A stretch of 64,000 bases of DNA from a virus. The position numbers were made by a program, and so were the translations under genes. Where the stretch lies: IMG/VR virus record IMGVR_UViG_3300020057_000496, positions 1 through 64,000 of that record, one strand, 5' to 3'. Under the pieces are notes generated by a model. It worked only from the letters and a program-made list of their open reading frames with translations. It had not been told where the DNA came from and ran no database searches. Below, one piece after another: positions 19,614 to 42,835 of this stretch; positions within the stretch are counted from its first letter, which is position 1; the number at the start of each line of letters is the position of its first letter.

Positions 19614-19789
19614 CGACAGCGAGCGCAGGCCCCGTCCCTTAGGGCGGGGTAAGCGAGCCATGAATGGCGGCAGGGCATGCCGTCACTGCGCGTGGAGGCA
19701 CAACGGTGCCGTTGAAGCGCGAACCCACTCGGGAGGTGCCGTATACTCCCCGAGGAATCCCCGTCCCCTTAGGGCGGGGAGGATGTCAA
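19614..19789 (+). mobile_element. Non-autonomous IS200/IS605 derivative (PATE/MITE): left end + omega-RNA/right end
   Basis: Near-identical to both ends of the 26201-27484 element with tnpB deleted after the ATG. Has two subterminal ccccgtccc..gggcgggg hairpins, ends in TCAA and is preceded by TGAC. Confidence 0.88.
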
Positions 19790-19859
19790 TAAGGGCGGGC
19801 CTATTTAGGCCAGGTAGGATGTCAATCATGCATCCACCGCTACACGAAAGAGGAGTTAG

Positions 19860-20117
19860 GTGGGGAGTACATTGAAATCTGTAACAACCTTACGGGTTAC
19901 GCCAGAGGTTGATTGTGACGCCAGTATTTGCTATAATTGTATTGCATTTAAGCTGTTGGACGGCCCCCAGGACGCCGAAGGCGAGCTTGGAGGCGAATGT
20001 AGGCTGAAGCCACCCGTAGTAGCAACGATAGACGAAGACGGCTACCCCATGACCGTCTGGCCATTAGTTATAGCCCAAGGCTGGTGTCTGTGTTTCGGCA
20101 AACGACCCACGACGTGA
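19860..20117 (+). CDS. Cys-rich phage protein (C..C...ECR..PP...WP.V....WC)
   Basis: Common small phage Zn-binding-like pattern. Confidence 0.55.
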   Translation: MGSTLKSVTTLRVTPEVDCDASICYNCIAFKLLDGPQDAEGELGGECRLKPPVVATIDEDGYPMTVWPLVIAQGWCLCFGKRPTT

Positions 20118-20126
20118 GGATGAGAT

Positions 20127-20489
20127 ATGTCTCTCAATACGGACGTGGGTGTTATGGGCAAAACTCGCAAAATAAAGGTTCGAAATAAAAGATACGAAAT
20201 CCGGCAGGTCGAGAATATTTCGGAGTCCGTCCCGGACTTGATTGCTCTGAATTACTCAAGGCCATTCAAGGATACCATAGGTCTCCTGCACCCCAAGAAA
20301 GACTTGATCCTCATTACTGAGAAGCTAACCGAAAGAGAAAAGGAAAGTACGATTCTACACGAGATTATTCACGCTTGCCTGCCTAACTTGACGGAAAAGA
20401 ATGTCAAGAATCTAGAGATTCGCATCTTCCCGACACTCTATAATAACGGACTGCGGTTCCTTAGTACCAGGAAGAAACGAGGACAGTAG
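20127..20489 (+). CDS. HExxH zincin-like (ImmA/IrrE-type) small protein
   Basis: 'STILHEIIHA'. Confidence 0.6.
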   Translation: MSLNTDVGVMGKTRKIKVRNKRYEIRQVENISESVPDLIALNYSRPFKDTIGLLHPKKDLILITEKLTEREKESTILHEIIHACLPNLTEKNVKNLEIRIFPTLYNNGLRFLSTRKKRGQ

Positions 20490-20660
20490 TGTCTGTGAAT
20501 ATTCACTCCAAGAATCCAACTATACGGGACAAGCGTGGCAAGGACACGTTTAATTCGTTTAGCATAAAGAACAACAAGGACCCGGCGGCCACTCCGGGCA
20601 AGATTGGCTCAAGTAAGGAGTACCGGCAGAACTACTACAAGGTATTTAAGAAGAAATGAC

Positions 20661-20837
20661 CGACAGCGAGCGCAGGCCCCGTCCCTTAGGGCGGGGTAAG
20701 TGAGCCATGAATGGCGGCAGGGCATGCCGTCACTGCGCGTAGAGGCACAACGGGTGCTGTTGAAGCGCGAACCTACTCGGGAGGTGCCGTATACTCCCCG
20801 AGGAATCCCCCGCCCTTTAGGGCGGGGAGGATGTCAA
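20661..20837 (+). mobile_element. Second PATE/MITE copy
   Basis: Near-identical to 19614-19789; TGAC upstream, TCAA end. Confidence 0.88.
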
Positions 20838-21272
20838 GCAGTTCGGTTGTGCCGCAACGATATAGTTGCCTTTTTTCGAACCAACCGAAGAGACTTCACG
20901 TGACGGGGCAGCCACGGGCGCCTGGTCGCGGGGTAGTTACGTGGAAATTGTTTGTTTTCCTGACTCATCGCGAGAAAGATGCGGCGATCTCGCGGGTAAT
21001 GGAAGCCAAGGAAGTTGTTCGGATGGACAAGCGCTATCAGTTCCTGAACGAACCATACAGTGATGTTCCTCACTATACTACAGACCAGACATTAGTTGGT
21101 TCGATGTTGAACTACATTCTATCACGTAGTTTCTGTGTTGACCTGGAGTTATCTACTTCTGGTGCACACGTCATGCGTGTCCGCGACGCCAATAACGGGG
21201 TCGCTTTACACTACCACGACCTGCAGGTCTTAATAGGAGCGGCCGTACTTTTTACAGCCGGTGAATTGGTTT

Positions 21273-22946
21273 ATGAGTGACTGTTCGAATGAATTTGAAA
21301 CAAGCCGACGCGGCCGACTTATTGGTTGCTTCTTCCTTGCATTGATCGTCGTCCTTTGGTGTGCCTTTGCGTTCGCCTCGACGGTTATCCTTCCGACAGA
21401 GGACGACATGATCGACGCAAGCGACGTTGTCGCCGTCGCGAAGGTGACAAGCATTACTTCTTACGACACCGACGTGGGCATACGGACACTAGTAGACTTC
21501 GCAGTCAGTGAGGTACTGAAGGGAACCCCGCCGCCGGGACTGGCTGTCCGTGAACTTGGCGGCAAGGTCGGAGAAAATGTCTTCTGGATTCCGGGTTCCC
21601 CGACTTACCGGGTTGGCGAACGTGTGATGGTATTCCTTGACCAGCGGGAGGACGGGACTTATCGAACCAAGCTCCTTGATGCCGGTCGTGTTCCGGTTCT
21701 TCCTGACGGAGTTGCGCGGAGTATGTCTGGGGACACGCTGGACACCTTCAAGTCGAGACTCACAAGTCGAGTCCTGCAGCGTAAGCAGGAATTACAGTCC
21801 CGTTCGGCGAGAGCGGCCAGCGCGACCTTTATGGTTCAGCCAGCGCCCCTTTCCGGTCCTGCCGAGAGCCAGGCAGAATTTCGTTTCATGACCGATCCTC
21901 CGTCGCTCTGGCTGAACAGGCCAGTCATGGTCTACGGCGACCCCGCTGGTGACGCCAAGATTGGACCAGTCGAGTCAAGACGTGCCGTGGCTGACGCGGC
22001 GGCTTCATGGTCAAGCGAGGCGAACGTAATCTTCGCCTACGCCGGGGACACGCCAGCAGTTGGGTACGCATGTGTCCCGGACAAGCTACTCGTGCAGTTC
22101 CGGGATGTCAAGAACGACATCGAGGACCCCAGTAACTGCTCGGGCGTTTTGGCTATAGGTGGTTTCTGTACTAGTGGCCTAGTGAGCGGCAAGTACCGCA
22201 TTGCATCAGGGGCCGTAGTTTTTAATAATGGCTGGGAGGGCTGTTCGTTCTGGAGCGCAGACAATATCGCCGAAGTCATGACTCACGAGTTCGGCCATGC
22301 GGTAGGACTTGCTCATTCCGCCGAGAGTGGCCAGACCTCGACGCCACACCTGGCAGACGCAACGATGTACTGGACGGCCCATTTCGACGGGCGACGTACC
22401 GGTCTGCGTGCGTACGACAAGGGGGCCATTCAGTCCCTTTATGGTTCAGTCAGGGCCTCGCCTGTACCGACGCCAGTCCCAACCAGGACGCCAGTACCAA
22501 CTGCGACAGTAGTCCCAACGGCGACTCCGACACCTATCCCTACTCCGGTCCCGACAGCCACGACGACGCCCGGCCCGACTGGCTCACCGGCCGGTCGATT
22601 CCTTGAGGTCCGGCAACTCCTGATTAAAGGTTCTGCCCGGAGGGGGCGTTCGGGGACACTCACGTTCAAGCTCGTCACAACCGAGAAACTCCCGAAGGAC
22701 CGGCCGACTGTTTTGTTCGCCAGTGAACTAGGCGGCAGTGTCCTGAGTAATCAGAATATTCAGAACGTCCAGACGTACGGGGAAACCCTGACCTTCCGTG
22801 CTGTCAATGTACCAAGTATTTTTTATCGAACCAGTATCAGAGTGGTCGTGATCGTCGGGCAGCGAGTCGCATTCGAGACGCTGACTTGCACCGCGCGTGA
22901 TCTTCTGCTCGGTACTACTATTTACTGCAGCCTAATAAAGGACTAG
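21273..22946 (+). CDS. Secreted/membrane-anchored matrixin-family (metzincin) metalloprotease with Pro-Thr linker
   Basis: N-terminal hydrophobic signal; HEFGHAVGLAH (HExxHxxGxxH); Met-turn 'ATMY'; (PT)n linker. Confidence 0.85.
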   Translation: MSDCSNEFETSRRGRLIGCFFLALIVVLWCAFAFASTVILPTEDDMIDASDVVAVAKVTSITSYDTDVGIRTLVDFAVSEVLKGTPPPGLAVRELGGKVGENVFWIPGSPTYRVGERVMVFLDQREDGTYRTKLLDAGRVPVLPDGVARSMSGDTLDTFKSRLTSRVLQRKQELQSRSARAASATFMVQPAPLSGPAESQAEFRFMTDPPSLWLNRPVMVYGDPAGDAKIGPVESRRAVADAAASWSSEANVIFAYAGDTPAVGYACVPDKLLVQFRDVKNDIEDPSNCSGVLAIGGFCTSGLVSGKYRIASGAVVFNNGWEGCSFWSADNIAEVMTHEFGHAVGLAHSAESGQTSTPHLADATMYWTAHFDGRRTGLRAYDKGAIQSLYGSVRASPVPTPVPTRTPVPTATVVPTATPTPIPTPVPTATTTPGPTGSPAGRFLEVRQLLIKGSARRGRSGTLTFKLVTTEKLPKDRPTVLFASELGGSVLSNQNIQNVQTYGETLTFRAVNVPSIFYRTSIRVVVIVGQRVAFETLTCTARDLLLGTTIYCSLIKD

Positions 22947-22949
22947 GGA

Positions 22950-23450
22950 ATGAACCAATTTGAGAAGCAAGTACGTGAGTTCCATGCCCACTTTGGCGCA
23001 ACTGTCGGGGACGCCCGCAACCCCGGACTTAATGAGTCGGCCCTTCGTAAGAACTTACTGCTGCAAGAGGTAGACGAGTTTATTCACGCAGTCGAATGGG
23101 GAGATTTTGACGGATCAATCCGAGAGCTACTTGACATTCTTTACGTGACGATCGGAGCACTTGTTGCATTCGGGGTCGAGGACATAGCGAGCTATTTTTC
23201 AGAATTGCACGAGGCTAACATGCGCAAAGAGGGTGGTTCGACTCGTGAAGACAGAAAGATCGTAAAGCCGGAAGGTTGGCAGCCGCCACACATCGGTCGG
23301 CTAATCGAGGCCCAACGCCTACGCGGCGAAGGTTCGGACCCGGCAAAGCCAGTGACAGGGAAGCCCGTGACTACGAAACCAGTGACGACGAAGCCTACGA
23401 AGCCAAGGAAAGAAGGGGCCAGTGTCTCAACTGAAAACAATCCTGGCTGA
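22950..23450 (+). CDS. MazG-like / PRA-PH nucleoside triphosphate pyrophosphohydrolase
   Basis: 'V.EFH..F', 'EVDEF', 'ELLDILYV..G' and 'H.ANM.K.......D.KIVKPEGW.PP'. Confidence 0.85.
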   Translation: MNQFEKQVREFHAHFGATVGDARNPGLNESALRKNLLLQEVDEFIHAVEWGDFDGSIRELLDILYVTIGALVAFGVEDIASYFSELHEANMRKEGGSTREDRKIVKPEGWQPPHIGRLIEAQRLRGEGSDPAKPVTGKPVTTKPVTTKPTKPRKEGASVSTENNPG

Positions 23451-23676
23451 GATTCGGAATCTCATCGACGCCCTTGAGTCCGCCGAAAGGGCTAAGTTCG
23501 AACAGGAGAACATAGCCGGGGAACGTAAGTTCGTTCTCGTTAAGCTGAAAAAAGGACTCATAGAGCTACGTGCACAGAGAGAGAAGGCACGCACTTCGCC
23601 AATTCGAGGGTCCTTCTGGCACGCGATTGACGACTGTACTAGTCTACTGGGGGAAATAGATGAAGTCATCGAGTAG
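23422..23676 (+). CDS. Hypothetical coiled-coil protein
   Basis: ORF in the operon. Confidence 0.45.
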   Translation: MSQLKTILAEIRNLIDALESAERAKFEQENIAGERKFVLVKLKKGLIELRAQREKARTSPIRGSFWHAIDDCTSLLGEIDEVIE

Positions 23677-23971: not shown

Positions 23972-24019
23972 GGTCCAGGCCGTGGTGCTACAGTGCCCCC
24001 GTTGAGTCAATGTCCGATT

Positions 24020-24069: not shown

Positions 24070-24080
24070 AGGAGGAATAC

Positions 24081-25328: not shown

Positions 25329-25330
25329 GC

Positions 25331-25359
25331 TTGACATGCCGTCCCTTAATGAGTATTTT
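25331..25359 (+). promoter_or_regulatory. Sigma70-like promoter
   Basis: TTGACA-N17-TATTTT; an alternative TAAAAT lies at 25363. Confidence 0.55.
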
Positions 25360-25369
25360 TCTAAAATCT

Positions 25370-25464
25370 GGCGGTAGGGCGTGCCGTTAATGCGCGAACC
25401 TACTCGGGAGGTGCCGTATACTTCCCGAGGAATCCCCGCCCCTTCAGGGCGGGGAGGATGTCAA
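25370..25464 (+). ncRNA. Stand-alone shortened TnpB omega-RNA scaffold/right end
   Basis: Matches the 3' part of the PATEs with an internal deletion between gcgcg repeats; ends GGATGTCAA; no intact left end. Confidence 0.6.
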
Positions 25465-25527
25465 GAAGTGCTCGATTGGTCGAGCAAGAGATTGTTCGAT
25501 TGGTCGAACAATCCGAAAGGGAGAGAC

Positions 25528-26058
25528 ATGGCACCGAAGAATAACGTGATGAAGCTGGCGACCTCCGATACGGGCGACACCGACGCGCCGACGGACGCAA
25601 CCGGAGACGCAACGGACGAGACGACCTCGACCATGGCGTCACCGACCATGGACGTACACACCACGGACGTACACACCACGGTCATGGTGGAACAGTTCAT
25701 CAGGCGGCGCGAAGAGGCCATTGCGGCGTCGGCATCGATCGATGCCGAGATGGACACAGCAATCTCCGATCTTGAGGCCCAACTGGAGGTTCTGTACGGG
25801 GCGCGCGGTTCGCGCCCGAAGCAGGGTACTCGCCGGGCCGCAGCCCGCCGTCAGGTTCCGATCGGGTCCGACCGGCTGAACTGGGACGAGAAGCTGTCCG
25901 CGCAGGAAGCCCACTTCACCATCGACGACTTGATGACCGACAAGGCGACCGCCGAACGCGGTCGCCAGGCATGCCACCAGGCTGTCAACCGCTGGGCAGA
26001 GAAGGGGCTAGTGAAGAAGCTGGGCGACGGGCGTATCCGCAAGAACGCCACCCGGTAA
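25528..26058 (+). CDS. Putative DNA-binding protein (acidic N-terminus, coiled coil, C-terminal winged-helix-like region)
   Basis: RBS GAAAGGGAG; C-terminal 'FTIDDL...QAVNRWAEKGLVKKLGDG'. Confidence 0.5.
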   Translation: MAPKNNVMKLATSDTGDTDAPTDATGDATDETTSTMASPTMDVHTTDVHTTVMVEQFIRRREEAIAASASIDAEMDTAISDLEAQLEVLYGARGSRPKQGTRRAAARRQVPIGSDRLNWDEKLSAQEAHFTIDDLMTDKATAERGRQACHQAVNRWAEKGLVKKLGDGRIRKNATR

Positions 26059-26130: not shown

Positions 26131-26200
26131 GTGGGACGTGAGGTGTTATGGACGCACATGAAGCCGCCGGGAGACTCCGGCAGGAATCCGAAACTCTTAC

Positions 26201-27484
26201 CAACAGCGAGCGCAGGCCCCGTCCTTTAGGGTGGGGTAAGCGAGCCATAAATGCGTCAACGCCTACAGCCCACGACGGACGAAGCCGAAGCACTTCTGGA
26301 GCATGCTGCTCAGGCACGCTTCGTCTGGAATCTCGCCCTTGAGCAGGCGAACCAGTACCGCCACGATCGTGGTCCGACGCCAGGATGGGCTGCGCAATGC
26401 CGCCAACTCGTGCAACTTCGGGCGGAGCACAACTGGATTGGTACGGGATCGTCAAGCATTCAGCAGCAGGCGCTCAAAGACCTGGCGCAGGCGTTTATTA
26501 ACTGGTGGAAACGTCCGGGCCACTTTGGGCGTCCGACTTGGCGAAAGCGTGGGCAGCACGAAGGCTTCCGCGTCGTGAACGTCACCGAGAGGTCAGTCGA
26601 GATTCTGCACCGGAGGGCGGCCACCGTCTTCGTTCCCAAGGTTGGTCGAGTACGCTTTCGAATCACACGACCGGTGCCGCTCGGCATCAAGTCGTATCGC
26701 ATCCGACGGGACGCGGCGGGTCGCTGGTGGCTGGCGTTCGCGGTCAAGCCGCAGGCGCTCACGAGAGGCGAAGGCGAGGTCGGTATCGACCGTGGCGTCG
26801 CACAGTCGCTAGCATTCTCCGACGGGACGTTTAGTCAGACACCGTCGCTGTCGTTGCCCGAACGGCGCCACCTGTTGCGCCTACAGCGCAAACTCGCGCG
26901 GCGGGTGAAGGGCAGTGTCCGTCGTGGCCGGGTCAAGCTCGCCATCGCTCGGCTGCGGGCGCGCGAGTCGGACCGCGCAAAAGACTGGGTCGAGAAGCAG
27001 ACGACGCGGATCGTCCGCGCGTCGCGTCTCGTGGTGATCGAGAAGCTTCAGATTCGGAACATGGTGCGTAGCGTCAAGGGCTCCATCGAGGAGCCCGGCA
27101 AGAACGTCCGCCAGAAGGCGGGCCTGAGCCGTGTGATCCTGGCGCAGCGCTGGGGCTTGTTTGCCAGGCGCCTACGAGAGAAGTCGGAACTAGCCGGTGT
27201 TGAGCTGATCGAAGTCAACCCGGCGTACACGTCGCAGCAGTGCTATGCGTGCGGCCACACGGCACCGGAAAATCGCGAGAGCCAAGCGAAATTCAGATGC
27301 CAATCGTGTGGCCGCTCAGCGAACGCAGACACCAACGCGGCGAAGAATATCCTTGCGGCAGGGCGTGCCGTCAATGCGCGTGGAGGCACAACGGTGCCGC
27401 TGAAGCGCGAACCTACTCGGGATGTACGCCGTGCCGCGTAACTTCCGAGGAATCCCCGTCCCTTCAGGGCGGGGAGGATGTCAA
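26201..27484 (+). mobile_element. IS200/IS605-family (IS1341-type, tnpB-only) element
   Basis: TTAC upstream of the left end, subterminal hairpins, TCAA right end, tnpB inside. Confidence 0.9.
26251..27441 (+). CDS. tnpB: RNA-guided endonuclease TnpB
   Basis: 'ARFVWN'; RuvC-I GIDRG; RuvC-II VIEKL; zinc finger CYAC/CQSC; RuvC-III NADTNAAKNI. Confidence 0.95.
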   Translation: MRQRLQPTTDEAEALLEHAAQARFVWNLALEQANQYRHDRGPTPGWAAQCRQLVQLRAEHNWIGTGSSSIQQQALKDLAQAFINWWKRPGHFGRPTWRKRGQHEGFRVVNVTERSVEILHRRAATVFVPKVGRVRFRITRPVPLGIKSYRIRRDAAGRWWLAFAVKPQALTRGEGEVGIDRGVAQSLAFSDGTFSQTPSLSLPERRHLLRLQRKLARRVKGSVRRGRVKLAIARLRARESDRAKDWVEKQTTRIVRASRLVVIEKLQIRNMVRSVKGSIEEPGKNVRQKAGLSRVILAQRWGLFARRLREKSELAGVELIEVNPAYTSQQCYACGHTAPENRESQAKFRCQSCGRSANADTNAAKNILAAGRAVNARGGTTVPLKREPTRDVRRAA

Positions 27485-27669
27485 CAAGAACGCCAGGTAC
27501 CTAGAGTCACTGGCCGCAAGTGCGACCGGGAGAGACGGCCGAGTTCCGATTGCCAGTAGGCTGTTCGATCAAGCGGTAGAGAAGGCCGTTACCGCGTATC
27601 TCCTGGCGATTGGGAACTCACGGGATCTCACACTCTTCATTCAACGCGAGCTGTGTTCGAGGTGCGTAG

Positions 27670-28281
27670 ATGTCTCTCAAGATCAATCAGTCAGAAAACC
27701 AAGAGTTACTCACCGTACAGATACAGAAGCCTAGCGCGAAATACTTTGATGAGATGTTGCGCATGTCCAGCGCGGCCGACTTGCTGCGGTCGGGCGTCTT
27801 CCCGAACGCCAAGGAAGTCACCGAGAGCTTCGGGGCGTACGACGCTGTCCGGAGGCACCTCTGGCGCGACTTCAAGCCGGACGACGACGAGGTGCTCTGT
27901 ATTTGCGTCGCGGACGGCCGGACGCCACGGACAGCACTGACGTTCGGGCTCCGTTCGGCCTGGACCTGTATCTCGGTTGATCCAAATCTCAACACCGGGC
28001 GCTTCCCGTTTTGGGTAACGAACTTCCGACGGCTCTTGATGTTCGCAAAGAAGATCGAGCAGTGCCAGTTCTCGGCACGGAAGGTGGTTGTCGTCATGGT
28101 CCACCCCCACGTCAAGATCCCACTCGCACTGGAAGCGATCACCGGATTCGAGCAGCGGGCGGTCGTGTCGATGCCTTGCTGTGTAAAACAGGAGATCCCC
28201 GGCCATCCACCCGACCTGGAGTACCACGATAGAGGGGTCTGGTCGCCACAGCGGACGGTGAAGGTGTGGAAGCAAATCTGA
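27670..28281 (+). CDS. Hypothetical protein, possible SAM-dependent methyltransferase fold
   Basis: 'CVADGRTPRT..TF......SVDP' and 'MPCC'. Confidence 0.45.
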   Translation: MSLKINQSENQELLTVQIQKPSAKYFDEMLRMSSAADLLRSGVFPNAKEVTESFGAYDAVRRHLWRDFKPDDDEVLCICVADGRTPRTALTFGLRSAWTCISVDPNLNTGRFPFWVTNFRRLLMFAKKIEQCQFSARKVVVVMVHPHVKIPLALEAITGFEQRAVVSMPCCVKQEIPGHPPDLEYHDRGVWSPQRTVKVWKQI

Positions 28282-28613
28282 AATCTTATCTTGACGTTGT
28301 CAAGCTGGTCGTCGAGTTACTTGACGGACGGGTAGTCGAGCCGGAAGATGATCAATCCAGCGACGAGGACCAGGTCATTGAGACAACCTCGATAGGACAT
28401 TGCATGCCACTAGTTAGGTAGAAGTCTAGGGACAAGTTGAATTACTGACTCGGTGTCGTAAAATCGCTAGCCTTTCTGTTCCTTTCGATCTAATCTCTCC
28501 GACAATCAAGTCGGGCACACGGAGTGGCCTTCCTCCCGGAAGGCGGTAAGAGGACTAGGACCCGCCCTTCGTGCTGCTTTCATGACCGACCTAACTCGGA
28601 AGGAGAGTTGAGA

Positions 28614-30440
28614 TTGAAGCCTAGCGCATGTATCGAAGTACTCCGGGCCACGGTCAAGATGAGTTCTCCGGTTTACCTGTGGGGACAGCCAGGATGTATC
28701 GCTGCCCAGACTAAGCTAAGTTATGTATCGCGTGGCCCTGACGGCAAGACACGTTCCACTAAGGGTGGTTCAATTGAACGACTCTACCAGGTGTTCCATG
28801 GTCTGACCGGACCAGGAAAGGGGCGCTATCAGGTAGCCCCAGTTGATTCGCAATTTTGGGTTTCGTCCGTAGACGACGAAGGGCGAATCTTCAAGAACCG
28901 CGTACTGGACGTAGTCCAGAGTGGCCAGAGGAAGTGTCTCCGACTCCGGACTAAGTCCGGCCTTGAAATCGAGGCGACCGACGACCACGAGTTTATGTCC
29001 GACGGGGAGTTTGCGGCACTTCGAGACTTACGGCCCGGTTCGGTCGTGGACGTACATACTAACAAGATCATCAATACGTCAACACGAAGGCCCAAGCGCA
29101 GTCGCGCCAGCCTCTCCGTACCTCACCATCCGTATGCCAGTACGCATGTGATTGAAAAGAAGTACACCTATAAGGCTCTTCCGTTGGCCAGAGCAATAGT
29201 GGAAGCTGACATGAATTCGCTCTCTATTGCCGAGTATCAGGCAAGGCTCAATAGTGGCGACCTTAGAGGGCTTCAGTTCCTTAAGAAGTCTGACGACGTT
29301 CACCACCGCGACGAGGATTGCACGAATGATGTGATCGAAAATCTTGAGGTTATTAGTCACACAGAGCACGCGCGACGCCACGGACTAAGGTATCAATCGT
29401 TACGTTACGTCACTACACGGGACGAAGTTGACTGGATTCAGCCGGTAGGTGTCAAGGAAACTTACGATCTCAAGATGGCTGGGCCATACCATAATTTTGT
29501 TGCAGCAAGTTTCGTCGTACATAACTGCGGCAAGAGCGATATCGTCAAGCGGGTAGCCAAGGAGCTAGAACTGCCGGTCATTGACATCCGCGCAGTCCTG
29601 CTCGACCCCGTTGATCTTCGGGGCATCCCGTACGTTCGTGACGGGGTCGCTCACTGGGCGTCGCCTTCGTTCCTCCCCCGCGACGGCGAGGGCATCATGT
29701 TCCTGGACGAGATCGCGAATGCGCCTCCGATGGTGCAGTCAGCACTCCTTCAACTTATTCTCGACGGCAAGGTCGGCGAGTATACAAAGCCGCCGGGCTG
29801 GCGTTTTGTCGCCGCGTCTAATCGCGTCGGCGACCGCGCGGGTAGCCATAAGATCATTTCGTCACTGGCGAATCGCTTTGCGTGCCACATCAACATGGAG
29901 GTTGACCACGAAGACTGGAATACCTGGGCAATAGAGGCCGGCATCGCCCCGGACATTCGTTCGTTCCTTAACTTCAAGCCGGCACTGCTGTCACAGTTTA
30001 ATCCGAACTCCGACGAGCCCGCATTTTCAACTCCAAGATCCTGGAAATTTGCCAGTGATCTTATCGCTAACATCCCGGAGGGGATGCACCTGCAAGTTCT
30101 TTCCGGTACGGTCGGGGCCGGATGTGCAGCCGAGTACGTTGCGTTCCGTGACGTGTATATGCGGATTCCGACGCTTGAGCAGATAGTCAAGGACCCCCAG
30201 AAGGTCAGCGTAAATAACGACCCGGCAACAAACTTTGCACTGGTCGGCGCACTTACCGACGCATGCGGGCGGCGTCCTAAGAATAAGGAAGTCCTGAACG
30301 CAGTCGTGGAGTTCATTTGCCGACTCCCGGCAGCGTTTGCGACCGTGTTCTTCCGTGACGTGTCACTCGTTGCTCCTATCACGATGAACCTACCCGGTAG
30401 TCGCGAGTGGGTACGCAAGCATCGTGGGACGATCGCGTAA
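28614..30440 (+). CDS. MoxR-like AAA+ ATPase containing an intein
   Basis: Walker A GQPG|CGKS split by the intein; 'DLRGIP'; Walker B 'FLDEI'; 'AASNR'; 'LANRF'; 'TPRSW'. TTG start inferred from RBS GGAG. Confidence 0.9.
   Translation: MKPSACIEVLRATVKMSSPVYLWGQPGCIAAQTKLSYVSRGPDGKTRSTKGGSIERLYQVFHGLTGPGKGRYQVAPVDSQFWVSSVDDEGRIFKNRVLDVVQSGQRKCLRLRTKSGLEIEATDDHEFMSDGEFAALRDLRPGSVVDVHTNKIINTSTRRPKRSRASLSVPHHPYASTHVIEKKYTYKALPLARAIVEADMNSLSIAEYQARLNSGDLRGLQFLKKSDDVHHRDEDCTNDVIENLEVISHTEHARRHGLRYQSLRYVTTRDEVDWIQPVGVKETYDLKMAGPYHNFVAASFVVHNCGKSDIVKRVAKELELPVIDIRAVLLDPVDLRGIPYVRDGVAHWASPSFLPRDGEGIMFLDEIANAPPMVQSALLQLILDGKVGEYTKPPGWRFVAASNRVGDRAGSHKIISSLANRFACHINMEVDHEDWNTWAIEAGIAPDIRSFLNFKPALLSQFNPNSDEPAFSTPRSWKFASDLIANIPEGMHLQVLSGTVGAGCAAEYVAFRDVYMRIPTLEQIVKDPQKVSVNNDPATNFALVGALTDACGRRPKNKEVLNAVVEFICRLPAAFATVFFRDVSLVAPITMNLPGSREWVRKHRGTIA
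28695..29525 (+). mobile_element. Intein with HNH homing endonuclease (277 aa)
   Basis: Begins C(IAAQT); block B 'ATDDHEF'; HNH 'VHHRDEDCTNDVIENL'; ends 'VVHN' followed by Cys. Confidence 0.92.
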
Positions 30441-32779
30441 TGTCAGGGGTAATCATTCCGGCTGATCCGACCCGTGTTGACCCCGATATCGAAAGGGCAA
30501 CACTGGAGGCTTACGAGAAGTCAGTCGTGTCACTCGTGCTCGGCACCGGAGCGCAGATGCGCTTCTTCGCCGCGCTCGTTATGCGAATGCGGTACAGTGT
30601 CGTGACGTGGATTCCGACCGCCGCCACTGACGGTCGGCAGATCTATCTCAATCCACAGTTCTGGCTCGACTTAACCCCAGCACAGCGCCGGACCGTACTA
30701 GCACACGAAGTCATGCACTGTGTCGAGAAACACACTGAACGACGCCAGCATCGCGACCCATACATATTCAATATCGCATGTTTTCCGGCGGGGACACTCT
30801 TGCCTGGCAATGTCCTGATTGAATCTGTAGCCAGTATGGTTTCCCATCTAGACGGTGAGTTAATTGAAGTTGCGCACCAAGGGGGAAAAATAAGTGCCAC
30901 CCCTGAGCATCCATTCTTTGTTCGAAAAAGAAAAAACAAAGTTGGCCTTACTCCGGTTCGCTTACTTGCGCCGGAGTGGGTCAAGGCGGAAAATATTCGT
31001 ATAGGCGATTACGTCTGCGTCCCGCGACTGGAACGCTATGGACTACGAGATGATGCGGTAATCAATCTCCATTCCTATATTAGGAATGGAATATCTAGCC
31101 GAGCAAATGGCAATAGAGCGGTTAAGTCCATTCCCCTCAATCAAGACACCGCGTGGCTAATTGGCCTCTATGTAGCCGAGGGTAGCGCTAGCCCTAGCGT
31201 TAGCTTCTCTCTTGGCTCACACGAGACTCATTTAGCAGATCGAATTAAGGCGATCGTATCATCGATTGGTTATTCGGCGAGTGTTTCGGTTAATGGGAGC
31301 AGCATGGCCGTAAACTTAGGGACGACCGTTCTTGGGCGATGGCTAAAGGCAAATGTCGGAACCGTAGCAAAGAATAAGCATATTCCCGATGTTATTCTTC
31401 GCCATAGCGACCCCTTGATTCGGCAAGCATTCCTTAAGGGTGTCGTTGATGGTGACGGGTGTACCCAAGTTCGTAATGGAAAGACCTGGATCGTGGTGGG
31501 TGTTTGTTCCCCGTCCCTTATTCGGGACATAATACTTCTCTTAGCGCAGGACGGACTTGGTGCTCGCGTCTCCACCCAGACACTCAAGCCGCGCTGGATT
31601 GGTAAAATGTATACTACTGTTCGGACAGTTATACATAACGTAACATGGAATCCCGATGGCCCCTCCAGGTCAATGAGGGAATTAAATGGTAATGTAGTAG
31701 TGTCCACTAATGCGCGGTATCGCACTGACGAACATGGTGTTTGGTATCCAGTAAAGAGCACTGAGCATTACCCGTACTCTGGTAATGTCTATAACTTAAC
31801 TAATACGCCAGATCATACTTATGTTGCCGAAAGTGTCTTAGTACACAACTGCGACCTCGAAATAAATTATATTCTCGAAGAAGCGAAGATGGAGTTCCCG
31901 AAGGACGCTTGTCTTCCGGGAAAGGGCGCGTTCGTCGGCACGGCTGGCAATCAGATTTCCGAGACATACTACGGACTCTTGCTCGAACAACAGCACAAGA
32001 AGACGGGCTTCTTTGGTCAAAAAGGGAAGGGCAAGGGCAAGGGCAAGGGCAAGGGCAGTCAAGACCCCGGCGGTCCGAACACTGACCCAGGTGGTTGTGG
32101 CGTAATCTTCGATAACTCACCAGGAGAGGCCGAACGCACGAAGCTGTCACTGGACTGGGACGTTGCGATCAAGCAGGCTGCGCAAGTGGCGAAGGATACA
32201 CAGGAACGCAGTCGCGGGACTATGCCTGGTTACTTCTCGAAGCTACTAGAGAAACTCCTGAAGCCACCTAAAATTCCCTGGTACTCCGAACTGCGTCAAT
32301 TCTTTACAGTCACGGCCAGGGATGACTATTCATGGGCATCACCTAATCGGCGCCATGTCGCGTCCGGGGTTTATCTGCCATCACTACGCTCCCAGCGCCT
32401 TGGCGAAATCTGTATGTTCGTTGATCTGTCTGGTTCGATGATGGGCGGAGATGACCTAGCACGTTGCGCAACCGAGATGACTGCCATTCTCGAAAACTAT
32501 CCGTCGAAGGTATGGATCGTATATCACGATACCCACGTTCGGACGGTACAGGAATGGACGCCGCTTGACGGTCCGATCGAATTCAAGGGGGACGGCGGCG
32601 GTGGAACCGACCACGTCCCTTGCTTTACTTGGATGGTGGAGCAGGGAATAGACCCGTGTGTCTCGATCTTCTTCACGGATCTCCAGACTAGGTTTCCGGT
32701 AGATCCACCGAGCCACCCGGTATTCTGGGTAACTGTCTCCGGTGGTAGTGCCCCATTCGGGCGTGTACTTGAGATTTGA
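30440..32779 (+). CDS. DUF2201-type metallopeptidase + VWA domain protein containing an intein
   Basis: 'TAATDG', 'AHEVMH', NIA|CD.EIN, MIDAS 'VDLSGSM', 'GGGTD' and 'FTD'. Confidence 0.9.
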   Translation: MSGVIIPADPTRVDPDIERATLEAYEKSVVSLVLGTGAQMRFFAALVMRMRYSVVTWIPTAATDGRQIYLNPQFWLDLTPAQRRTVLAHEVMHCVEKHTERRQHRDPYIFNIACFPAGTLLPGNVLIESVASMVSHLDGELIEVAHQGGKISATPEHPFFVRKRKNKVGLTPVRLLAPEWVKAENIRIGDYVCVPRLERYGLRDDAVINLHSYIRNGISSRANGNRAVKSIPLNQDTAWLIGLYVAEGSASPSVSFSLGSHETHLADRIKAIVSSIGYSASVSVNGSSMAVNLGTTVLGRWLKANVGTVAKNKHIPDVILRHSDPLIRQAFLKGVVDGDGCTQVRNGKTWIVVGVCSPSLIRDIILLLAQDGLGARVSTQTLKPRWIGKMYTTVRTVIHNVTWNPDGPSRSMRELNGNVVVSTNARYRTDEHGVWYPVKSTEHYPYSGNVYNLTNTPDHTYVAESVLVHNCDLEINYILEEAKMEFPKDACLPGKGAFVGTAGNQISETYYGLLLEQQHKKTGFFGQKGKGKGKGKGKGSQDPGGPNTDPGGCGVIFDNSPGEAERTKLSLDWDVAIKQAAQVAKDTQERSRGTMPGYFSKLLEKLLKPPKIPWYSELRQFFTVTARDDYSWASPNRRHVASGVYLPSLRSQRLGEICMFVDLSGSMMGGDDLARCATEMTAILENYPSKVWIVYHDTHVRTVQEWTPLDGPIEFKGDGGGGTDHVPCFTWMVEQGIDPCVSIFFTDLQTRFPVDPPSHPVFWVTVSGGSAPFGRVLEI
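30779..31849 (+). mobile_element. Intein with LAGLIDADG homing endonuclease (357 aa)
   Basis: Begins CFPAGT; 'ATPEHPF'; 'IGLYVAEG' and 'LKGVVDGDG'; ends 'LVHN' followed by Cys. Confidence 0.92.
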
Positions 32780-37633: not shown

Positions 37634-37644
37634 TACGGGCTTAT

Positions 37645-39222: not shown

Positions 39223-39552
39223 TTGGCGAGTGAAGTAGTGGTAAAGGACAAGAAAGAACACGACCGGCGTAAGCTTACGAAGGAAGAAGGCGCAGCGATT
39301 TATCGGTGGCTGACGGAACGCTGGGGCCTTAGCCCGAAAGCGGGTTCGCAATTCCTGGACGAGGTGCGAGACAAACTTCCGTATCGGACAGTCGGGGAGG
39401 CATTCATGGAAGTCTGGACCTTCGCCAGGCGAGAGTACATGCTTCAGTTACTTGTCCACGTCAAGTCTGACAAGTACGATGAGCGACAGAAGGAATTGTT
39501 CATGTTCAAGACTGGTGGCTTGGATAAAGAAGATAGTTAGCCCGCTAAAATT

Positions 39553-40071
39553 GTGATCCACGTCTTTAAGCACCCCTGGTCGCTTGACTACACGCAGCTA
39601 CTCAATAGCTACGAGCTTGCCGTTAAGTACACCAGTGAGAATCACTACGTCTTCTACATAAGAATACGTGAGGGTCGCATACGCTCCTCGGATGGGCTAT
39701 CAAGGCCACTAACGGAGTACAGACTGACGCAACCCTCAAGGCTAAGCGCCGTTATGCGTGGCTGTCGCATGAGTAGCTTCAAGCCCGAATTACTAGTAAC
39801 GGAAGGCGAAGGCACGACTTGTGCCTGGATAAAGAAACTGACCGAGCTATCTCAAATGATTAGAATTTGCACCGCTGATTTTCAGAAGGGGCCTAGTCTC
39901 GTAGTTCAGTACCACAATAACGATGTCCATACTTGGAATTCGACTGCATTCAGGCTCGTGATAATAACGGACCGTCCGATCAAGAGAGCTGAAGTGTTGA
40001 GTCAGGTACTCACTGAGCATAATCTAATTTGCCTTACTTCAGGACTGGCTGGTGTCATTGCTTTAGGTTAG
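39553..40071 (+). CDS. Hypothetical protein
   Basis: ORF; C-terminus resembles those of the 32776 and 34071 ORFs. Confidence 0.45.
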   Translation: MIHVFKHPWSLDYTQLLNSYELAVKYTSENHYVFYIRIREGRIRSSDGLSRPLTEYRLTQPSRLSAVMRGCRMSSFKPELLVTEGEGTTCAWIKKLTELSQMIRICTADFQKGPSLVVQYHNNDVHTWNSTAFRLVIITDRPIKRAEVLSQVLTEHNLICLTSGLAGVIALG

Positions 40072-40404
40072 TCGTTACAGAGCGCATTAGCACTGCGTAC
40101 CGCACGGGCCTTCCGAACATTCTCGCGGCATGACTGTAGCTTTTTGATTGAGCGTGCCACTCCACCTGACGCGCCGCCCTTTAGTCCGTTGCAACTCGGG
40201 CAATGTAGCTTAGTTCCGGGGTGAATGTCGCAGTCGTAGTGGTTGACTTGTAGTTCCAAGAGGTTCTCGATCGCATTGTCTATTTCTTTTTTCATCGAAC
40301 ATATTATAGCACGACCCCAGATGGATAAACGACCCCTTGACCGACTGTTGAATCAGTGATAGGTTCGCCGCAGGCGGCGACCGCAACTTGCGAGGTAGGT
40401 GAGG

Positions 40405-40851
40405 ATGAAAGCAAAAAGGCTCCTGAAGCTGGCCGACTTCCTTGAAAAGCTCCCCGAGAAGAAACGTAAGGGGAAGTTCGACATGGACACCTTCGGGAAA
40501 CATGTCGGCCCACACCACCCCAAGAAGTACAACTACTGCGGCACGTCGGCATGTGCTCTTGGTTGGGCAACAACAAGCCCTTACTTCCGCCGACTTGGGC
40601 TAAAGGCCGGCTGGCGCAAAATGGGTCGGAAGGGAAGTCCAGGATATCGCTGGAGAATGGACATGAGTTACCGTAAGCTCCACGAATTCGCCGCAGCCGG
40701 GAGGTTGTTCGACATCCCAGAAATGGAAGCTTACTTCCTGTTCGGAGGTGGGGAACTAACGAGTAGGCGGAAAGTAATTCGGAGTCTGCGAAAACTAGCC
40801 AGGCTAGGAGTTACTAAGTTTAGGTTGGCACACGGGGCTAGCTATCAATGA
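40405..40851 (+). CDS. Hypothetical phage protein ('CGT.AC..GWA' family)
   Basis: 'FDM..F...CGTSACALGWA'; upstream TTGACC-N17-TAGGTT promoter at about 40337. Confidence 0.6.
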   Translation: MKAKRLLKLADFLEKLPEKKRKGKFDMDTFGKHVGPHHPKKYNYCGTSACALGWATTSPYFRRLGLKAGWRKMGRKGSPGYRWRMDMSYRKLHEFAAAGRLFDIPEMEAYFLFGGGELTSRRKVIRSLRKLARLGVTKFRLAHGASYQ

Positions 40852-42030
40852 ACGGATGAAAAATCCATACTGGTTCGTAAGGAAATATGCGAAGTACGCG
40901 TTGCAGTCACTGCAACTCGCAGGCAGCTTGGTTGAGTTCTGTAAGAAGTGTGGTCGGAAACAACCGTTGGTCTGGACTGCTCCAAATAATCTATGGCTTG
41001 AGATTAACGGGAAATCTGGCGGGGTACTTTGCCCCGAATGCTTCCAATCTTGCTGTGACGCACGCGGAATCCCTGTTTGCTGGGAACCAAAAGTTAGAAC
41101 CAGGGCACGCGGAAGTCAGCCAGGAAGGTAGGGTAAATTCGAATATGCCCGGTGTGTATTCCTATGCCGCGTGCCTCGCCCGTATTTGGTGCGTGCGTAG
41201 AGTACGTTACCTGTCGCCGTTGTCTCGCAATAAGAAGTCAACAGAGTCAGCGGACTGAAGGGAGATAGTCCATGGATGCGTTACCACCGAATCCACCGGC
41301 CGTAGTCAGTGCGGTATGCCCAGAACTACAGGTGCGGTCAGTTGAACTAGGGAAGCGCTTCTTTATTGTCGAGTACTGTGTTTACCGAGGGTCGGGATTT
41401 TACGCCCCGGCTACCGTAGACAGCCAACCTCACTACCCGGCACAGGCAACTGTCTATGAACTCAAGGGGGGTGTCCGGGTACGGCTCGGTCGTACATTCC
41501 CGGCTTCATGGATAGACCGAGGCTGCTTCGAAGACGATCCGGCGACACTCGTGTCTGAGGCGACAAGGAACTTCGGGAAGAAGTCCGGGAAGGTTCGAAA
41601 GAAGTAATTAGGGAGTGTGACGTAACGCAGTTTCGCTGGTCCTTTAAGCCAGAGTCGGCCAGATTAGCCGCGTCCAACTTGGTCCCATAGTTTAACAGGT
41701 TAAAACGGGCTCCTTATAAGAGCTTGACGTACGTTCAAGTCGTACTGGGACCACCTACCTATTAACGAAGGACTTAACTGTGGCGATTTCTAAACGTAGA
41801 CTTGGTTGTAAGTGCACCTGCCATACCAATAATTGGCGGCTGTCGGGGTACAGGAGCCATGCTGACTGCTTGAACTGTACGAGCTTCCTGCGCTTCGAAC
41901 CTAAAGTGCGGAAATTCCTTGAGCGAACCTTCAAGCCGAGCGTCGCCCCGATCCTTGGTCGCTCAACACTCCCGACCTTCAAACGGTCCCGAACGGTCCC
42001 GAACTCCTGCGCTTAGCCACGCATTCCTCC

Positions 42031-42059
42031 TTGCTGGAGGTTCGAAAAGGTGATAGCAT
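42031..42059 (+). promoter_or_regulatory. Sigma70-like extended -10 promoter
   Basis: TTGCTG-N17-TAGCAT with TG at -15/-14. Confidence 0.45.
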
Positions 42060-42064
42060 GAGAC

Positions 42065-42191
42065 GTTCCGTGGGACTGCGGCTCGGTCAACGAGCCGGGT
42101 CTCCTGGATCGATCGGGAGGTCGCTGCGTCCGTAATTATGCTGGCGTGGTACGGCCGGGCTGCTCACTCGCACGCCCGGTCGTCTCCTTTT
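42065..42191 (+). ncRNA. Candidate small structured RNA
   Basis: Follows the promoter. Hairpins cggctcg/cgagccg and ctcctg/cgggag; terminal acggccgggc/gcccggtcgt stem followed by ctcctttt; no ORF. Confidence 0.4.
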
Positions 42192-42219
42192 CTGGACTAT
42201 AACTGAATCGGGGTGTGGT

Positions 42220-42456
42220 GTGGGCGCAATTTTAGTCGCTTCGTGTCTCTGTCAGAATGCGTACCAGGACGGCCTTTATGGTCGCGGGAAGCGGCTGTTC
42301 AATCTCAAGTTCGACAAGGCCAAGGGGTCACTGTGTACCGTCTGCGGCAAGTCCGGGCCAGGCGTGGCCGTCCGTGAGGTTGCCACGAAAATCAAGCAGG
42401 CGAAGAAGGAAGAGCCGAAGGACAAGTCCGGTAAGAAGGGCAAGAAGGCAAAGTAA
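42220..42456 (+). CDS. Small basic zinc-finger-like protein
   Basis: 'C.C....QD.LYG.G.R..N......CTVCG' with a Lys-rich tail. Confidence 0.6.
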   Translation: MGAILVASCLCQNAYQDGLYGRGKRLFNLKFDKAKGSLCTVCGKSGPGVAVREVATKIKQAKKEEPKDKSGKKGKKAK

Positions 42457-42531
42457 GCCAGTTCCTTCGTCGTCAATGCTCTATACTTTTTCCTTTTACT
42501 TCAACGACGAGTCCAGGCGGGCTATTCGTTC

Positions 42532-42835
42532 AAGTCGGAACTAGCCGGTGTTGAGCTGATCGAAGTCAACCCGGCGTACACGTCGCAACGCTGCTACTCC
42601 TGTGGCCACACGTGCGCATCGAATCGCGAGAACCAAGCGGAATTTCGTTGCGTGTCGTGCGGCCACGAAGCGAACGCGGACATCAACGCGGCGAAGAATA
42701 TCCTTGCGGCAGGACATGCCGTCAATGCGCGTGGAGGCACACGGGTGCCGTTGAAGCGCGAACCTACTCGGGAGGTACGCCGTGCCGCGTAACTTCCGAG
42801 GAATCCTCGTCCCTTCAGGGCGGGGAGGATGTCAA
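42532..42835 (+). pseudogene. tnpB: 3' fragment of a tnpB element with intact omega-RNA/right end
   Basis: First ~55 nt are identical to 27181-27236; similarity continues to GGATGTCAA. Confidence 0.85.

What the first reader, a model, noticed from the sequence alone, without database searches (positions are those of the whole stretch)
19614..42835. One intact TnpB plus four dispersed omega-RNA-retaining derivatives, each with a different guide: a possible distributed guide repertoire in a phage
Seen: the full element (26201-27484) has all three RuvC acidic residues. Four relatives (19614-19789, 20661-20837, 25370-25464, 42532-42835) lost most or all of tnpB, yet each keeps the 3' scaffold to GGATGTCAA. 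All five lie on the transcribed + strand. Their 3' flanks differ: taagggcgggcctatt, gcagttcggttgtgcc, gaagtgctcgattggt, caagaacgccaggtac and aacgtagccaggctgg. Established: TnpB omega-RNA derives from the element's right end and its guide is the 3' flanking DNA. Inference: one nuclease could be loaded in trans with up to five guides, protecting the mini-elements or targeting element-free alleles in competing phages. No intact tnpA is present in the window.
Basis: partly seen in the sequence, partly recalled or inferred. Interest (0 to 1): 0.8.

Follow-up and report, generated by a model that had tools for sequence, protein, structure and literature searches.

The report
Phage TnpB transposon with gene-less guide-RNA copies
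A large microbial-mat phage carries an IS605-type TnpB transposon plus cut-down, gene-less copies that each keep the nuclease's guide-RNA scaffold next to a different flank; this kind of element is already described, and real use of the extra guides is plausible but not shown.

Summary
A complete tnpB-only IS200/IS605 element (26201-27484) and four co-oriented derivatives all end in GGATGTCAA and have five different 3' flanks.

The count "one intact TnpB" is wrong. A second TnpB ORF lies in the window (43746-44792) and a third at 74207-75262(-) of the 167-kb phage record. Further micro-relics lie at 89 kb, 91 kb and 135 kb.

- **The two minis** are PATE-like: left end plus right end, with the same deletion junction.
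- **The scaffold** is a real conserved RNA. It has four stems, with compensatory changes in 36 of 40 pairs across 76 relatives.
- **The derivatives** fit a model built from those relatives alone: 98-118 bits. The solo copy scores 76 bits because stem 2 is cleanly deleted.
- **The solo copy** starts about 10 nt after a sigma70-like promoter. It is polymorphic, and an allele without it coexists in the same mat sample, with the guide match behind ATAC.

No guide matches anything except its own flank. No vacant site was found for the minis or the full element.

Different guides follow automatically from insertion at different sites. Trans-loading of PATE guide RNAs, and homing into co-infecting phages, are already proposed in the literature. 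This scan has reported similar phage cases in at least 22 other genomes.

Verdict: a new member of a known kind.

The parts
19610..19613 (+). TAM TGAC in front of mini-1
   Evidence: Sequence. Same tetranucleotide class (TGAC/TTAC) in front of all six copies that keep a left end.
19614..19789 (+). Mini-1: PATE-like gene-less element. It has about 55 bp of left end with hairpin fused to the last 123 bp of the right end, which is the complete four-stem guide-RNA scaffold.
   Evidence: Scores 105.4 bits against model R2, built from relatives only. Its deletion junction is identical to that of mini-2.
19790..19805 (+). Guide-equivalent flank of mini-1 (TAAGGGCGGGCCTATT)
   Evidence: matches only its own position in the 167-kb record.
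20657..20660 (+). TAM TGAC in front of mini-2. Its TGA is the stop codon of ORF 20489-20659.
20661..20837 (+). Mini-2: second copy of the same deletion derivative, 95.6% identical to mini-1
   Evidence: R2 score 98.1 bits.
20838..20869 (+). Guide-equivalent flank of mini-2 (GCAGTTCGGTTGTGCC), followed by a terminator-like hairpin and T run (20854-20869)
   Evidence: The terminator is a consensus match only.
25331..25359 (+). Sigma70-like promoter TTGACA-N17-TATTTT, ending 10 nt before the solo scaffold
   Evidence: 10 of 12. Its spacer, -10 and discriminator resemble a second promoter-like site at G000 83685-83713(-). The allele without the solo copy keeps TTGACA-N17-TATTAC.
25370..25464 (+). 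Solo copy: right-end scaffold without a left end. Stem 2 was removed cleanly between GCGCG repeats and the remaining stems are fully paired. It is present or absent in different variants of the phage population.
   Evidence: 76.3 bits, 34 model positions missing. It is absent in L020 and L021, where 29 other bases replace 25341-25464. Both alleles occur in run X2.
25465..25480 (+). Guide-equivalent flank of the solo copy (GAAGTGCTCGATTGGT). It is the 5' leader of the gene that starts at 25529 and contains a twice-repeated TCGATTGGTCGA palindrome.
26197..26200 (+). TAM TTAC in front of the full element
26201..27484 (+). Full tnpB-only IS200/IS605 element. Left-end hairpin 26217-26236, tnpB 26251-27441, guide-RNA scaffold 27354-27484, right-end hairpin 27454-27474, end ...GTCAA.
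   Evidence: A 99.3% identical copy lies at another site in a distantly related phage.
27485..27500 (+). Guide-equivalent flank of the full element (CAAGAACGCCAGGTAC)
   Evidence: No vacant site was found in IMG/VR.
42532..42835 (+). 5'-truncated copy: the last 86 codons of a diverged tnpB, still in frame with Cys and Asp motifs kept, plus a complete scaffold. It has no left end.
   Evidence: R2 score 118.3 bits.
42836..42851 (+). Guide-equivalent flank of the truncated copy (AACGTAGCCAGGCTGG)
43746..44809 (+). Its own right-end-like hairpin lies at 44780-44799 and its end is ...GACGTTAC. The RuvC-II Glu is replaced (motif VGNVN).
   Evidence: The scaffold is only faintly like the TnpB-1 family (11.9 bits, E 0.16).

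Best explanation
The phage has been colonised repeatedly by tnpB-only IS200/IS605 elements that use IS608-like end chemistry. They insert 3' of TTAC or TGAC, carry subterminal hairpins at both ends, and end in TCAA. The other copies are their deletion derivatives. Mini-1 and mini-2 are a PATE-like non-autonomous element. One internal deletion fused the left end to the last 123 bp, and the product then moved to a second site. The movement used a Y1 TnpA supplied in trans, presumably by the host, because the phage record has none. The copy at 42532 is a 5'-truncated relic of a diverged sister element. The solo copy is a right-end fragment of the mini subfamily. It now sits just after the predicted start point of a phage promoter. 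Each copy has a different 'guide' only because the guide RNA reads into whatever DNA lies 3' of the right end. Inferred, not shown: the copies lie in co-directional transcription units, and TnpB can cut its guide RNA out of a longer transcript. TnpB-1 could therefore load the mini, truncated and perhaps solo scaffolds in trans. It would then cut the vacant version of each site (TAM plus flank), and recombination with an occupied genome copy would restore or spread the insert. That is selfish retention or homing among replicating or co-infecting phage genomes. It is not a repertoire aimed at other targets.
For: Shown, identity: TnpB domains and the catalytic triad. Left and right hairpins, and TAM TGAC/TTAC in 6 of 6 copies that keep a left end. 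No TnpA or serine recombinase in the record. Shown, mobility: the two minis share one deletion junction at two loci. The full element is 99.3% identical at a different TGAC site in a phage that shares only 30-50% protein identity in the structural module. Shown, scaffold: 76 of 80 metagenomic relatives carry the four-stem scaffold. In them, 36 of 40 pairs show changes on both sides, and 86.8% of cells are paired against 37-50% when partners are slid. Model R2, built from relatives only, scores the full copy 118.8, the truncated copy 118.3, mini-1 105.4, mini-2 98.1 and the solo 76.3 bits. Among the six copies, 13 changes at paired positions keep pairing and 3 break it. Shown, context: all ten copies are co-oriented with local genes. 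A promoter lies before the solo copy and a terminator-like hairpin lies 17 nt after mini-2. Shown, population: the solo copy is absent in variants L020 and L021, with the right boundary exactly at the element end, and both alleles occur in run X2. [quoted passage not shown] TnpB processes mRNA into guide RNA (PMC10278001). Homing into co-infecting phages has been proposed (PMC13565253).
Against: There is no direct evidence that any derivative is transcribed, processed or bound. The pair-preserving changes may be inherited from intact ancestors rather than selected in the derivatives, and the binomial support is modest (P about 0.01 at best). Co-orientation with genes is also expected from the known replication-strand bias of IS200/IS605 insertion (from my own knowledge, not checked here). 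The minis and the full element are present in every variant assembly that covers their sites, and no vacant site was found. The vacant allele of the solo copy has ATAC, whereas T is invariant at that TAM position in the copies and relatives examined. The left side of that polymorphism is a 29-bp replacement, not a clean insertion. The solo copy lacks stem 2, which is 39 nt in 59 of 76 relatives and only rarely shortened. A decay series down to hairpin-only micro-relics exists in the same genome.
Confidence: 0.6

Rival explanations
1. Inert debris. The derivatives are decaying leftovers of IS insertions and deletions, with no present activity. Their intact look reflects youth, and their guides are incidental.
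For: A full decay series is present. It runs from the complete element to the minis, then a truncated copy, a solo copy lacking stem 2, 45-bp micro-elements that keep only one hairpin, and bare tip relics. The minis differ by only 7 substitutions and 1 gap, so there has been little time to decay. Variable columns are no rarer in stems (18 of 76) than in loops (10 of 59). The guides match nothing but their own flank.
Against: Changes at paired positions keep pairing 13 to 3. The derivatives score nearly as well as intact elements against an independent family model. The solo copy sits precisely behind a promoter with all remaining stems perfectly paired.
Confidence: 0.28
2. A phage-serving distributed guide set. 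The phage keeps the extra scaffolds because TnpB-1 armed with them cuts competing phage variants that lack the inserts. This would give marker exclusion or a gene drive that benefits the flanking phage genes. The promoter-fused, immobile solo copy would be a domesticated guide.
For: The solo copy has lost its left end, so it cannot transpose. It starts about 10 nt after a promoter and lies 740 bp upstream of tnpB-1. An allele without it, carrying a perfect guide match, coexists at similar depth in the same sample: 8.4 against 10.7. The phage carries inteins, at least one with a LAGLIDADG homing endonuclease, so homing-type elements do occur in it.
Against: ATAC in the vacant allele departs from the invariant first T of the TAM. 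The two alleles coexist, and there is no sign of a sweep. The haplotype without the solo copy also carries at least the left 442 bp of the full element, including the start of tnpB-1, at the same site; its contig ends at 26642. No targets were found for the other four guides. Stem 2 is missing from the solo copy.
Confidence: 0.1
3. Structural or regulatory RNA/DNA use unrelated to TnpB. The GC-rich hairpins would serve as terminators, RNA stabilisers or leader structures for the neighbouring phage genes.
For: Mini-2 lies between a stop codon and a terminator-like hairpin. The solo copy forms the 5' leader of the gene at 25529.
Against: The conserved part is the whole TnpB scaffold with family-specific covariation, not just a hairpin. 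The variant without the solo copy expresses the same gene from the same -35 box, so the leader is not needed.
Confidence: 0.02

Closest known systems
PATEs (palindrome-associated transposable elements): protein-less IS200/IS605 derivatives, such as those noted in Geobacillus stearothermophilus (Meers et al. 2023, PMC10055086)
   Same: They have no ORF. They keep the left and right ends with hairpins and encode a guide-RNA scaffold that would need TnpB from another element. They are mobilised in trans by TnpA. Mini-1 and mini-2 fit this description.
   Different: Here they sit in a virulent-type large phage genome that has no TnpA of its own. The solo and truncated copies lack a left end, so they are not PATEs in the strict sense.
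IS608 / ISDra2-type IS200/IS605 elements with TnpB and guide RNA (Karvelis et al. 2021, PMC8612924; ISDra2 TnpB structures 8EXA, 8H1J)
   Same: Insertion is 3' of a tetranucleotide (TTAC for IS608). The right end finishes in TCAA, both ends carry subterminal hairpins, and the guide-RNA scaffold overlaps the 3' end of tnpB. TnpB-1 aligns to ISDra2 TnpB over its whole length with the D-E-D triad.
   Different: There is no tnpA (a tnpB-only element). The TAM is TGAC or TTAC. The scaffold has four stems with a clade-specific sequence. Cleavage activity is untested.
Transposon homing by TnpB: restorative, or 'non-restorative' into homologous plasmids or co-infecting phages (Meers 2023; review PMC13565253)
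   Same: This is the mechanism proposed here: cut the vacant TAM-plus-flank site and repair it from an occupied copy.
   Different: The phage case is only a theoretical row in the review's table. Here there is a natural phage population in which occupied and vacant alleles coexist, but the vacant allele has an imperfect TAM.
Earlier findings of this scan: gene-less TnpB guide-RNA mini-elements in other phages (e1-5351273, e1-5706335, e1-5511973 and others)
   Same: The architecture is the same, including a scaffold placed directly behind a promoter and, in one case, sister phages that keep the vacant site.
   Different: This phage combines three TnpB lineages, two scaffold subfamilies and a within-sample polymorphism. 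I did not re-check the earlier notes.

Membership tests
IS200/IS605 family (IS608-like ends) | Subterminal imperfect hairpins at both ends, with no terminal inverted repeats | tested here: met
   Left hairpin 26217-26236 and right hairpin 27454-27474, with similar sequence. The same hairpins occur in the minis.
IS200/IS605 family (IS608-like ends) | Insertion 3' of a specific tetranucleotide without target duplication, and a right end finishing in a fixed cleavage motif | tested here: met
   TGAC four times and TTAC twice, directly 5' of the left end. All right ends finish in GTCAA (one micro-relic has GTCAG). The flanks are unrelated.
IS200/IS605 family (IS608-like ends) | Y1 HUH transposase TnpA in the element or the genome | tested here: not met
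   No PF01797 match in the 166,852-bp record, with positive controls working. No serine recombinase either. The elements are therefore non-autonomous. The record is estimated to be 87% complete.
TnpB / guide-RNA (OMEGA) nucleases | TnpB domain architecture with the RuvC D-E-D triad and a zinc finger | tested here: met
   TnpB-1 has PF12323, PF01385 and PF07282. It aligns to ISDra2 TnpB. D180, E264, D360 and four Cys are invariant. TnpB-2 and TnpB-3 have Gly in place of the RuvC-II Glu, as in the rearranged clades of PMC10691335.
TnpB / guide-RNA (OMEGA) nucleases | Conserved structured RNA scaffold that overlaps the 3' end of tnpB and stops at the right end | tested here: met
   76 of 80 relatives match the full model. 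36 of 40 pairs show compensatory change, and slid controls fall to 37-50% paired. Caveat: the alignment was fitted to the model.
TnpB / guide-RNA (OMEGA) nucleases | Guide RNA is expressed, bound by TnpB, and directs TAM-dependent DNA cleavage | not testable with these tools
   This needs RNA and biochemical data.
PATE / MITE-like non-autonomous derivative | No ORF, with both transposon ends retained | tested here: met
   Met for mini-1 and mini-2. Not met for the solo (25370-25464) and truncated (42532-42835) copies, which lack a left end.
PATE / MITE-like non-autonomous derivative | Has transposed as a unit: the same internal deletion is found at more than one locus | tested here: met
   The left-end/right-end junction ...GCCATGAATG|GCGGCAGGGC... 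is identical at 19.6 kb and 20.7 kb. The junction was not found in other IMG/VR contigs.
Multi-guide targeting array (CRISPR-like repertoire) | Guides match targets other than their own insertion site | tested here: not met
   No match with 2 or fewer mismatches in the 167-kb record or the sister-phage loci. No vacant sites in IMG/VR. Only the solo guide matches a natural alternative allele.

The most novel reading that the evidence does not exclude
The solo copy is a domesticated, immobile guide-RNA gene. It would be transcribed from a phage promoter as the first about 95 nt of an mRNA leader and loaded onto TnpB-1, which is encoded 740 bp downstream. It would be programmed against the coexisting phage allele that lacks it. 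That would make it a natural RNA-guided gene drive or marker-exclusion device operating within a wild phage population.
Probability: 0.12. Interest if true: 0.7.

Novelty: new member of a known kind. Interest (0 to 1): 0.33.

Why it matters
The biological role of the very abundant tnpB-only elements is still argued mostly from laboratory plasmids and chromosomes. In this phage, occupied and vacant alleles of a guide-RNA insert coexist in the same mat samples. A 99.3% identical element is also shared with a distantly related phage. Together these give a natural setting for testing whether TnpB homing works between co-infecting viral genomes, and whether gene-less scaffolds borrow a nuclease in trans. 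As a discovery it is incremental. The element class and the trans-loading idea are published, and this scan has reported similar phage cases on other DNA.

Tried and rejected
- **RNA evidence:** no RNA holder is listed among the nine sequencing runs that hold the stretch. All laid runs were DNA contigs, so transcript ends could not be read.
- **Rfam:** only a tRNA passed the gathering threshold in the window, and no guide-RNA family matched.
- **INPHARED phages:** megablast of the full element found no match.
- **Neighbouring gene:** the 561-aa protein gave no related loci in IMG/VR.
- **Vacant-site scans of IMG/VR (exact):** none found for mini-1, mini-2, the full element, or the sister phage's insertion.
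- **Other exact scans of IMG/VR:** the mini deletion junction and the promoter-scaffold junction of the solo copy were not found either.
- **Guides against the record and sister loci:** only self matches.
- **GTDB genomes:** the right-end tip motif is exact in more than 120 stretches across cyanobacteria, Ktedonobacteria, actinobacteria and haloarchaea. Only the last 38 nt or so resemble this element, so no host or parent element was identified.
- **Idea that the 29 bases left of the solo copy are a decayed left end:** rejected. They match a second promoter-like site of the phage at 83.7 kb instead.
- **Idea that the full element interrupts a small gene (26148-26200 joined to 27486-27731):** the frame is open across the joint, but the C-terminal part has no homologues. 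Left open.
- **Higher identity of the truncated copy in the scaffold than in the upstream coding remnant** (7 of 131 against 25 of 173 mismatches, P 0.013): not taken as selection after truncation. The coding differences keep the Cys and Asp motifs, and 9 of the 23 differing codons are synonymous, so they fit divergence while the gene was intact.
Full report
**Setting**

The window is the first 64 kb of a 166,852-bp IMG/VR virus record, called linear and estimated 87% complete. The record holds a portal-protease-capsid module that is syntenic, at 30-50% protein identity, with another phage from the same samples. Nine public DNA runs hold the stretch, all from microbial-mat metagenomes.

**Observation**

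- GGAGGATGTCAA occurs exactly at 19778, 20826, 25453, 27473 and 42824, all on the + strand.
- The 41-nt left end occurs at 19613, 20660 and 26200.
- The full element runs from 26201 to 27484, behind TTAC.
- Its limits are confirmed from outside. A 99.3% identical copy in contigs L014-L019 aligns to 26196-27484 and to nothing beyond. There it lies behind TGAC, four codons into a glycosyltransferase gene.

TnpB-1 (396 aa) has the HTH, OrfB_IS605 and zinc-ribbon domains. It aligns to ISDra2 TnpB over residues 4-380. It keeps D180, E264, D360 and the four cysteines, which are invariant in 25 homologues.

There are three TnpB genes, not one.
- TnpB-2 (43746-44792, 348 aa) lies 900 bp after the truncated copy.
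- TnpB-3 (G000 74207-75262, minus strand, 351 aa) ends in a right-end tip almost identical to that of TnpB-1.
- Both have Gly where ISDra2 has the RuvC-II Glu. That matches the 'rearranged' clades described in PMC10691335, so their activity is uncertain.

The genome also holds further relics.
- Two 45-bp micro-elements keep only the first bases of the left end, one hairpin and the right-end tip: 89217-89263(-) and 135162-135206(+).
- A bare tip relic lies at 91561-91595(-).

The tip motif GAGGAATCC-hairpin-GGAGGATGTCAA is ancient and widespread. It is exact in more than 120 stretches of cyanobacterial, Ktedonobacterial, actinobacterial and haloarchaeal genomes. The record has no Y1 TnpA and no serine recombinase.

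**Anatomy of the derivatives**

- **Mini-1 and mini-2.** Both join about 55 bp of the left end to the last 123 bp of the right end, at the same junction. They are 95.6% identical to each other and both lie behind TGAC. One deletion followed by transposition is the simplest history, and that is what defines a PATE or MITE. In mini-2 the TGA of the TAM is the stop codon of the upstream ORF, and a terminator-like hairpin follows 17 nt after the element.
- **Scaffold subfamilies.** The minis and the solo copy share a stem-3 apex (GGTGCCGTATAC). It differs from the apex of the full and truncated copies. There are therefore two scaffold subfamilies, and the full-length parent of the mini subfamily is not in this phage.
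- **Truncated copy (42532-42835).** It keeps the last 86 codons in frame, with the Cys and Asp motifs, plus the whole scaffold.
- **Solo copy (25370-25464).** It has no left end, and stem 2 was lost between two GCGCG repeats. Its other three stems are perfectly paired.

**Is the scaffold a real RNA, and are the derivatives decayed?**

I built a covariance model from the five complete copies. It found a full-length match at the 3' end of tnpB in 76 of 80 metagenomic relatives, which are about 50% identical in protein.
- On that alignment, 36 of 40 pairs show changes on both sides.
- 86.8% of cells are paired, against 37-50% when the partners are slid.
- Caveat: the alignment was fitted to the model.

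A second model was built only from those relatives, so it is independent of this phage. Its scores are:

| Copy | R2 score (bits) |
|---|---|
| Sister-phage full copy | 123.0 |
| Full element | 118.8 |
| Truncated copy | 118.3 |
| Mini-1 | 105.4 |
| Mini-2 | 98.1 |
| Solo copy | 76.3 |

Among the six copies, 13 state changes at paired positions keep a standard pair, including one double change (C-G to U-A). Three break a pair. An apparent break in stem 4 of mini-2 disappears with a one-base register shift.

The support is still modest (binomial P about 0.01 at best). Much of the variation separates two subfamilies that probably diverged while intact. Paired columns vary as often as unpaired ones.

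**Transcription context**

Genes run + from 1 to 45 kb, - from 45 to 95 kb and + from 95 to 160 kb. All ten element copies follow the local direction. This fits read-through transcription. It equally fits the known replication-strand bias of IS200/IS605 insertion, which I cite from my own knowledge and did not test here.

The solo copy begins 10 nt after TTGACA-N17-TATTTT. The spacer, -10 and discriminator of that promoter resemble a second promoter-like site at 83.7 kb.

**Population evidence**

Other assemblies of the same phage are 98-100% identical. They carry both minis, the full element, the truncated copy and TnpB-3 at the same sites. The solo copy is the exception.
- In L020 and L021, bases 25341-25464 are replaced by 29 unrelated bases. 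Those bases preserve TTGACA-N17-TATTAC, and the alignment resumes exactly at 25465, the first base after GTCAA.
- In run X2 both alleles are present: a contig with the solo copy at depth 10.7 and a joint without it at depth 8.4. Run X8 shows the allele without it.
- The vacant allele reads ...CTGCATAC|GAAGTGCTCGATTGGT..., so the guide match is perfect.
- The TAM position there holds ATAC. In this subfamily the TAM is TGAC or TTAC. In relatives it is TGAC, TCAC or TCAT, always with T first.
- The haplotype without the solo copy also carries at least the left 442 bp of the full element, including the start of tnpB-1, at the same site; its contig ends at 26642.

**Targets**

Each 16-nt flank matches only itself in the record and in the sister-phage loci. 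Exact scans of IMG/VR for the vacant sites of mini-1, mini-2, the full element and the sister phage's insertion found nothing.

**Interpretation**

The identity part is secure: a non-autonomous IS200/IS605 TnpB element with PATE-like and fragmentary derivatives, mobilised by a transposase from outside the phage. It was moved recently between distantly related phages.

The functional part is inference. The scaffolds are intact and probably transcribed, and TnpB can trim guide RNA from longer transcripts (PMC10278001). Trans-loading is therefore plausible, and each RNA would direct cutting of its own vacant site.

This is the published model for PATEs (PMC10055086) and for homing into co-infecting phages (PMC13565253). 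A set of different guides is what any set of independent insertions gives, and nothing shows that the phage uses them against other targets.

The most interesting piece is the promoter-fused, immobile, polymorphic solo copy. Its missing stem 2 and the ATAC in the vacant allele keep that reading at low probability.

**Comparison and novelty**

The closest known things are PATEs of IS200/IS605, IS608/ISDra2-type TnpB elements, and TnpB homing. This scan has already reported gene-less TnpB guide-RNA mini-elements in phages of at least 22 other genomes. I rate this a new member of a known kind. It is useful as a natural test bed rather than as a new mechanism.

Noticed in passing
window 43632-44831 (-): A 399-aa open frame runs antisense across the whole of TnpB-2 and has no Pfam match. 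A 2026 preprint on cyanophage A-1(L) reports a translated reverse-strand ORF over tnpB (10.64898/2026.02.14.705889).
   Followed up: no
window 19790-19825: A second tip-like GTAGGATGTCAA lies 24 nt after the right end of mini-1. The bases between (TAAGGGCGGGCC...) resemble the 3' arm of the right-end hairpin, as if mini-1 abuts an older right-end relic or a partial duplication.
   Followed up: partly
G000 89217-89263 (-) and 135162-135206 (+): These are 45-bp micro-elements made of the TAM, the first bases of the left end, one hairpin and the right-end tip. They are probably products of recombination between the left and right hairpins. The one at 135 kb lies just after the GT4 gene, in the neighbourhood where the sister phage carries the full element.
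   Followed up: partly
L014 9946-11234: In the sister phage the element sits four codons into a GT2 gene (ATG GTC GCT GAC | ATC GGC ...). The gene caller starts the GT2 ORF inside the right end, in frame.
   Followed up: no
L014 18757-18880 and G000 152152-152275: A 124-bp patch is 99% identical between the two phages, which otherwise share no nucleotide similarity. A 49-bp patch lies at G000 149544. This suggests recent DNA exchange between them.
   Followed up: no
window 26148-26200 and 27486-27731: The reading frame stays open across the vacant joint of the full element: 18 codons before it and 82 after it. The element may therefore interrupt a small gene, but the downstream part has no homologues.
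   Followed up: partly
window 27423: G000 has T where the sister copy and contigs in runs X2, X6 and X8 have G. The T breaks a stem-3 pair and changes Glu to Asp near the TnpB-1 C-terminus.
   Followed up: no
window 19602-19902 and 20806-21106, run X2: Contig depth over the right-end tip reaches several hundred and up to about 2,400, against about 20 for the phage. Many different flanks follow it, so the element family is very abundant elsewhere in the mat community.
   Followed up: no
G000 76495-79878: A 3.4-kb stretch is absent from variant assemblies L313 and L314 of the same phage, in the small-gene region next to TnpB-3.
   Followed up: no
window 28524-30440 and 30407-32779: Two neighbouring genes carry intein matches. 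The second is a DUF2201 metallopeptidase/VWA protein with a LAGLIDADG homing endonuclease. The phage carries inteins as well as the IS elements.
   Followed up: no
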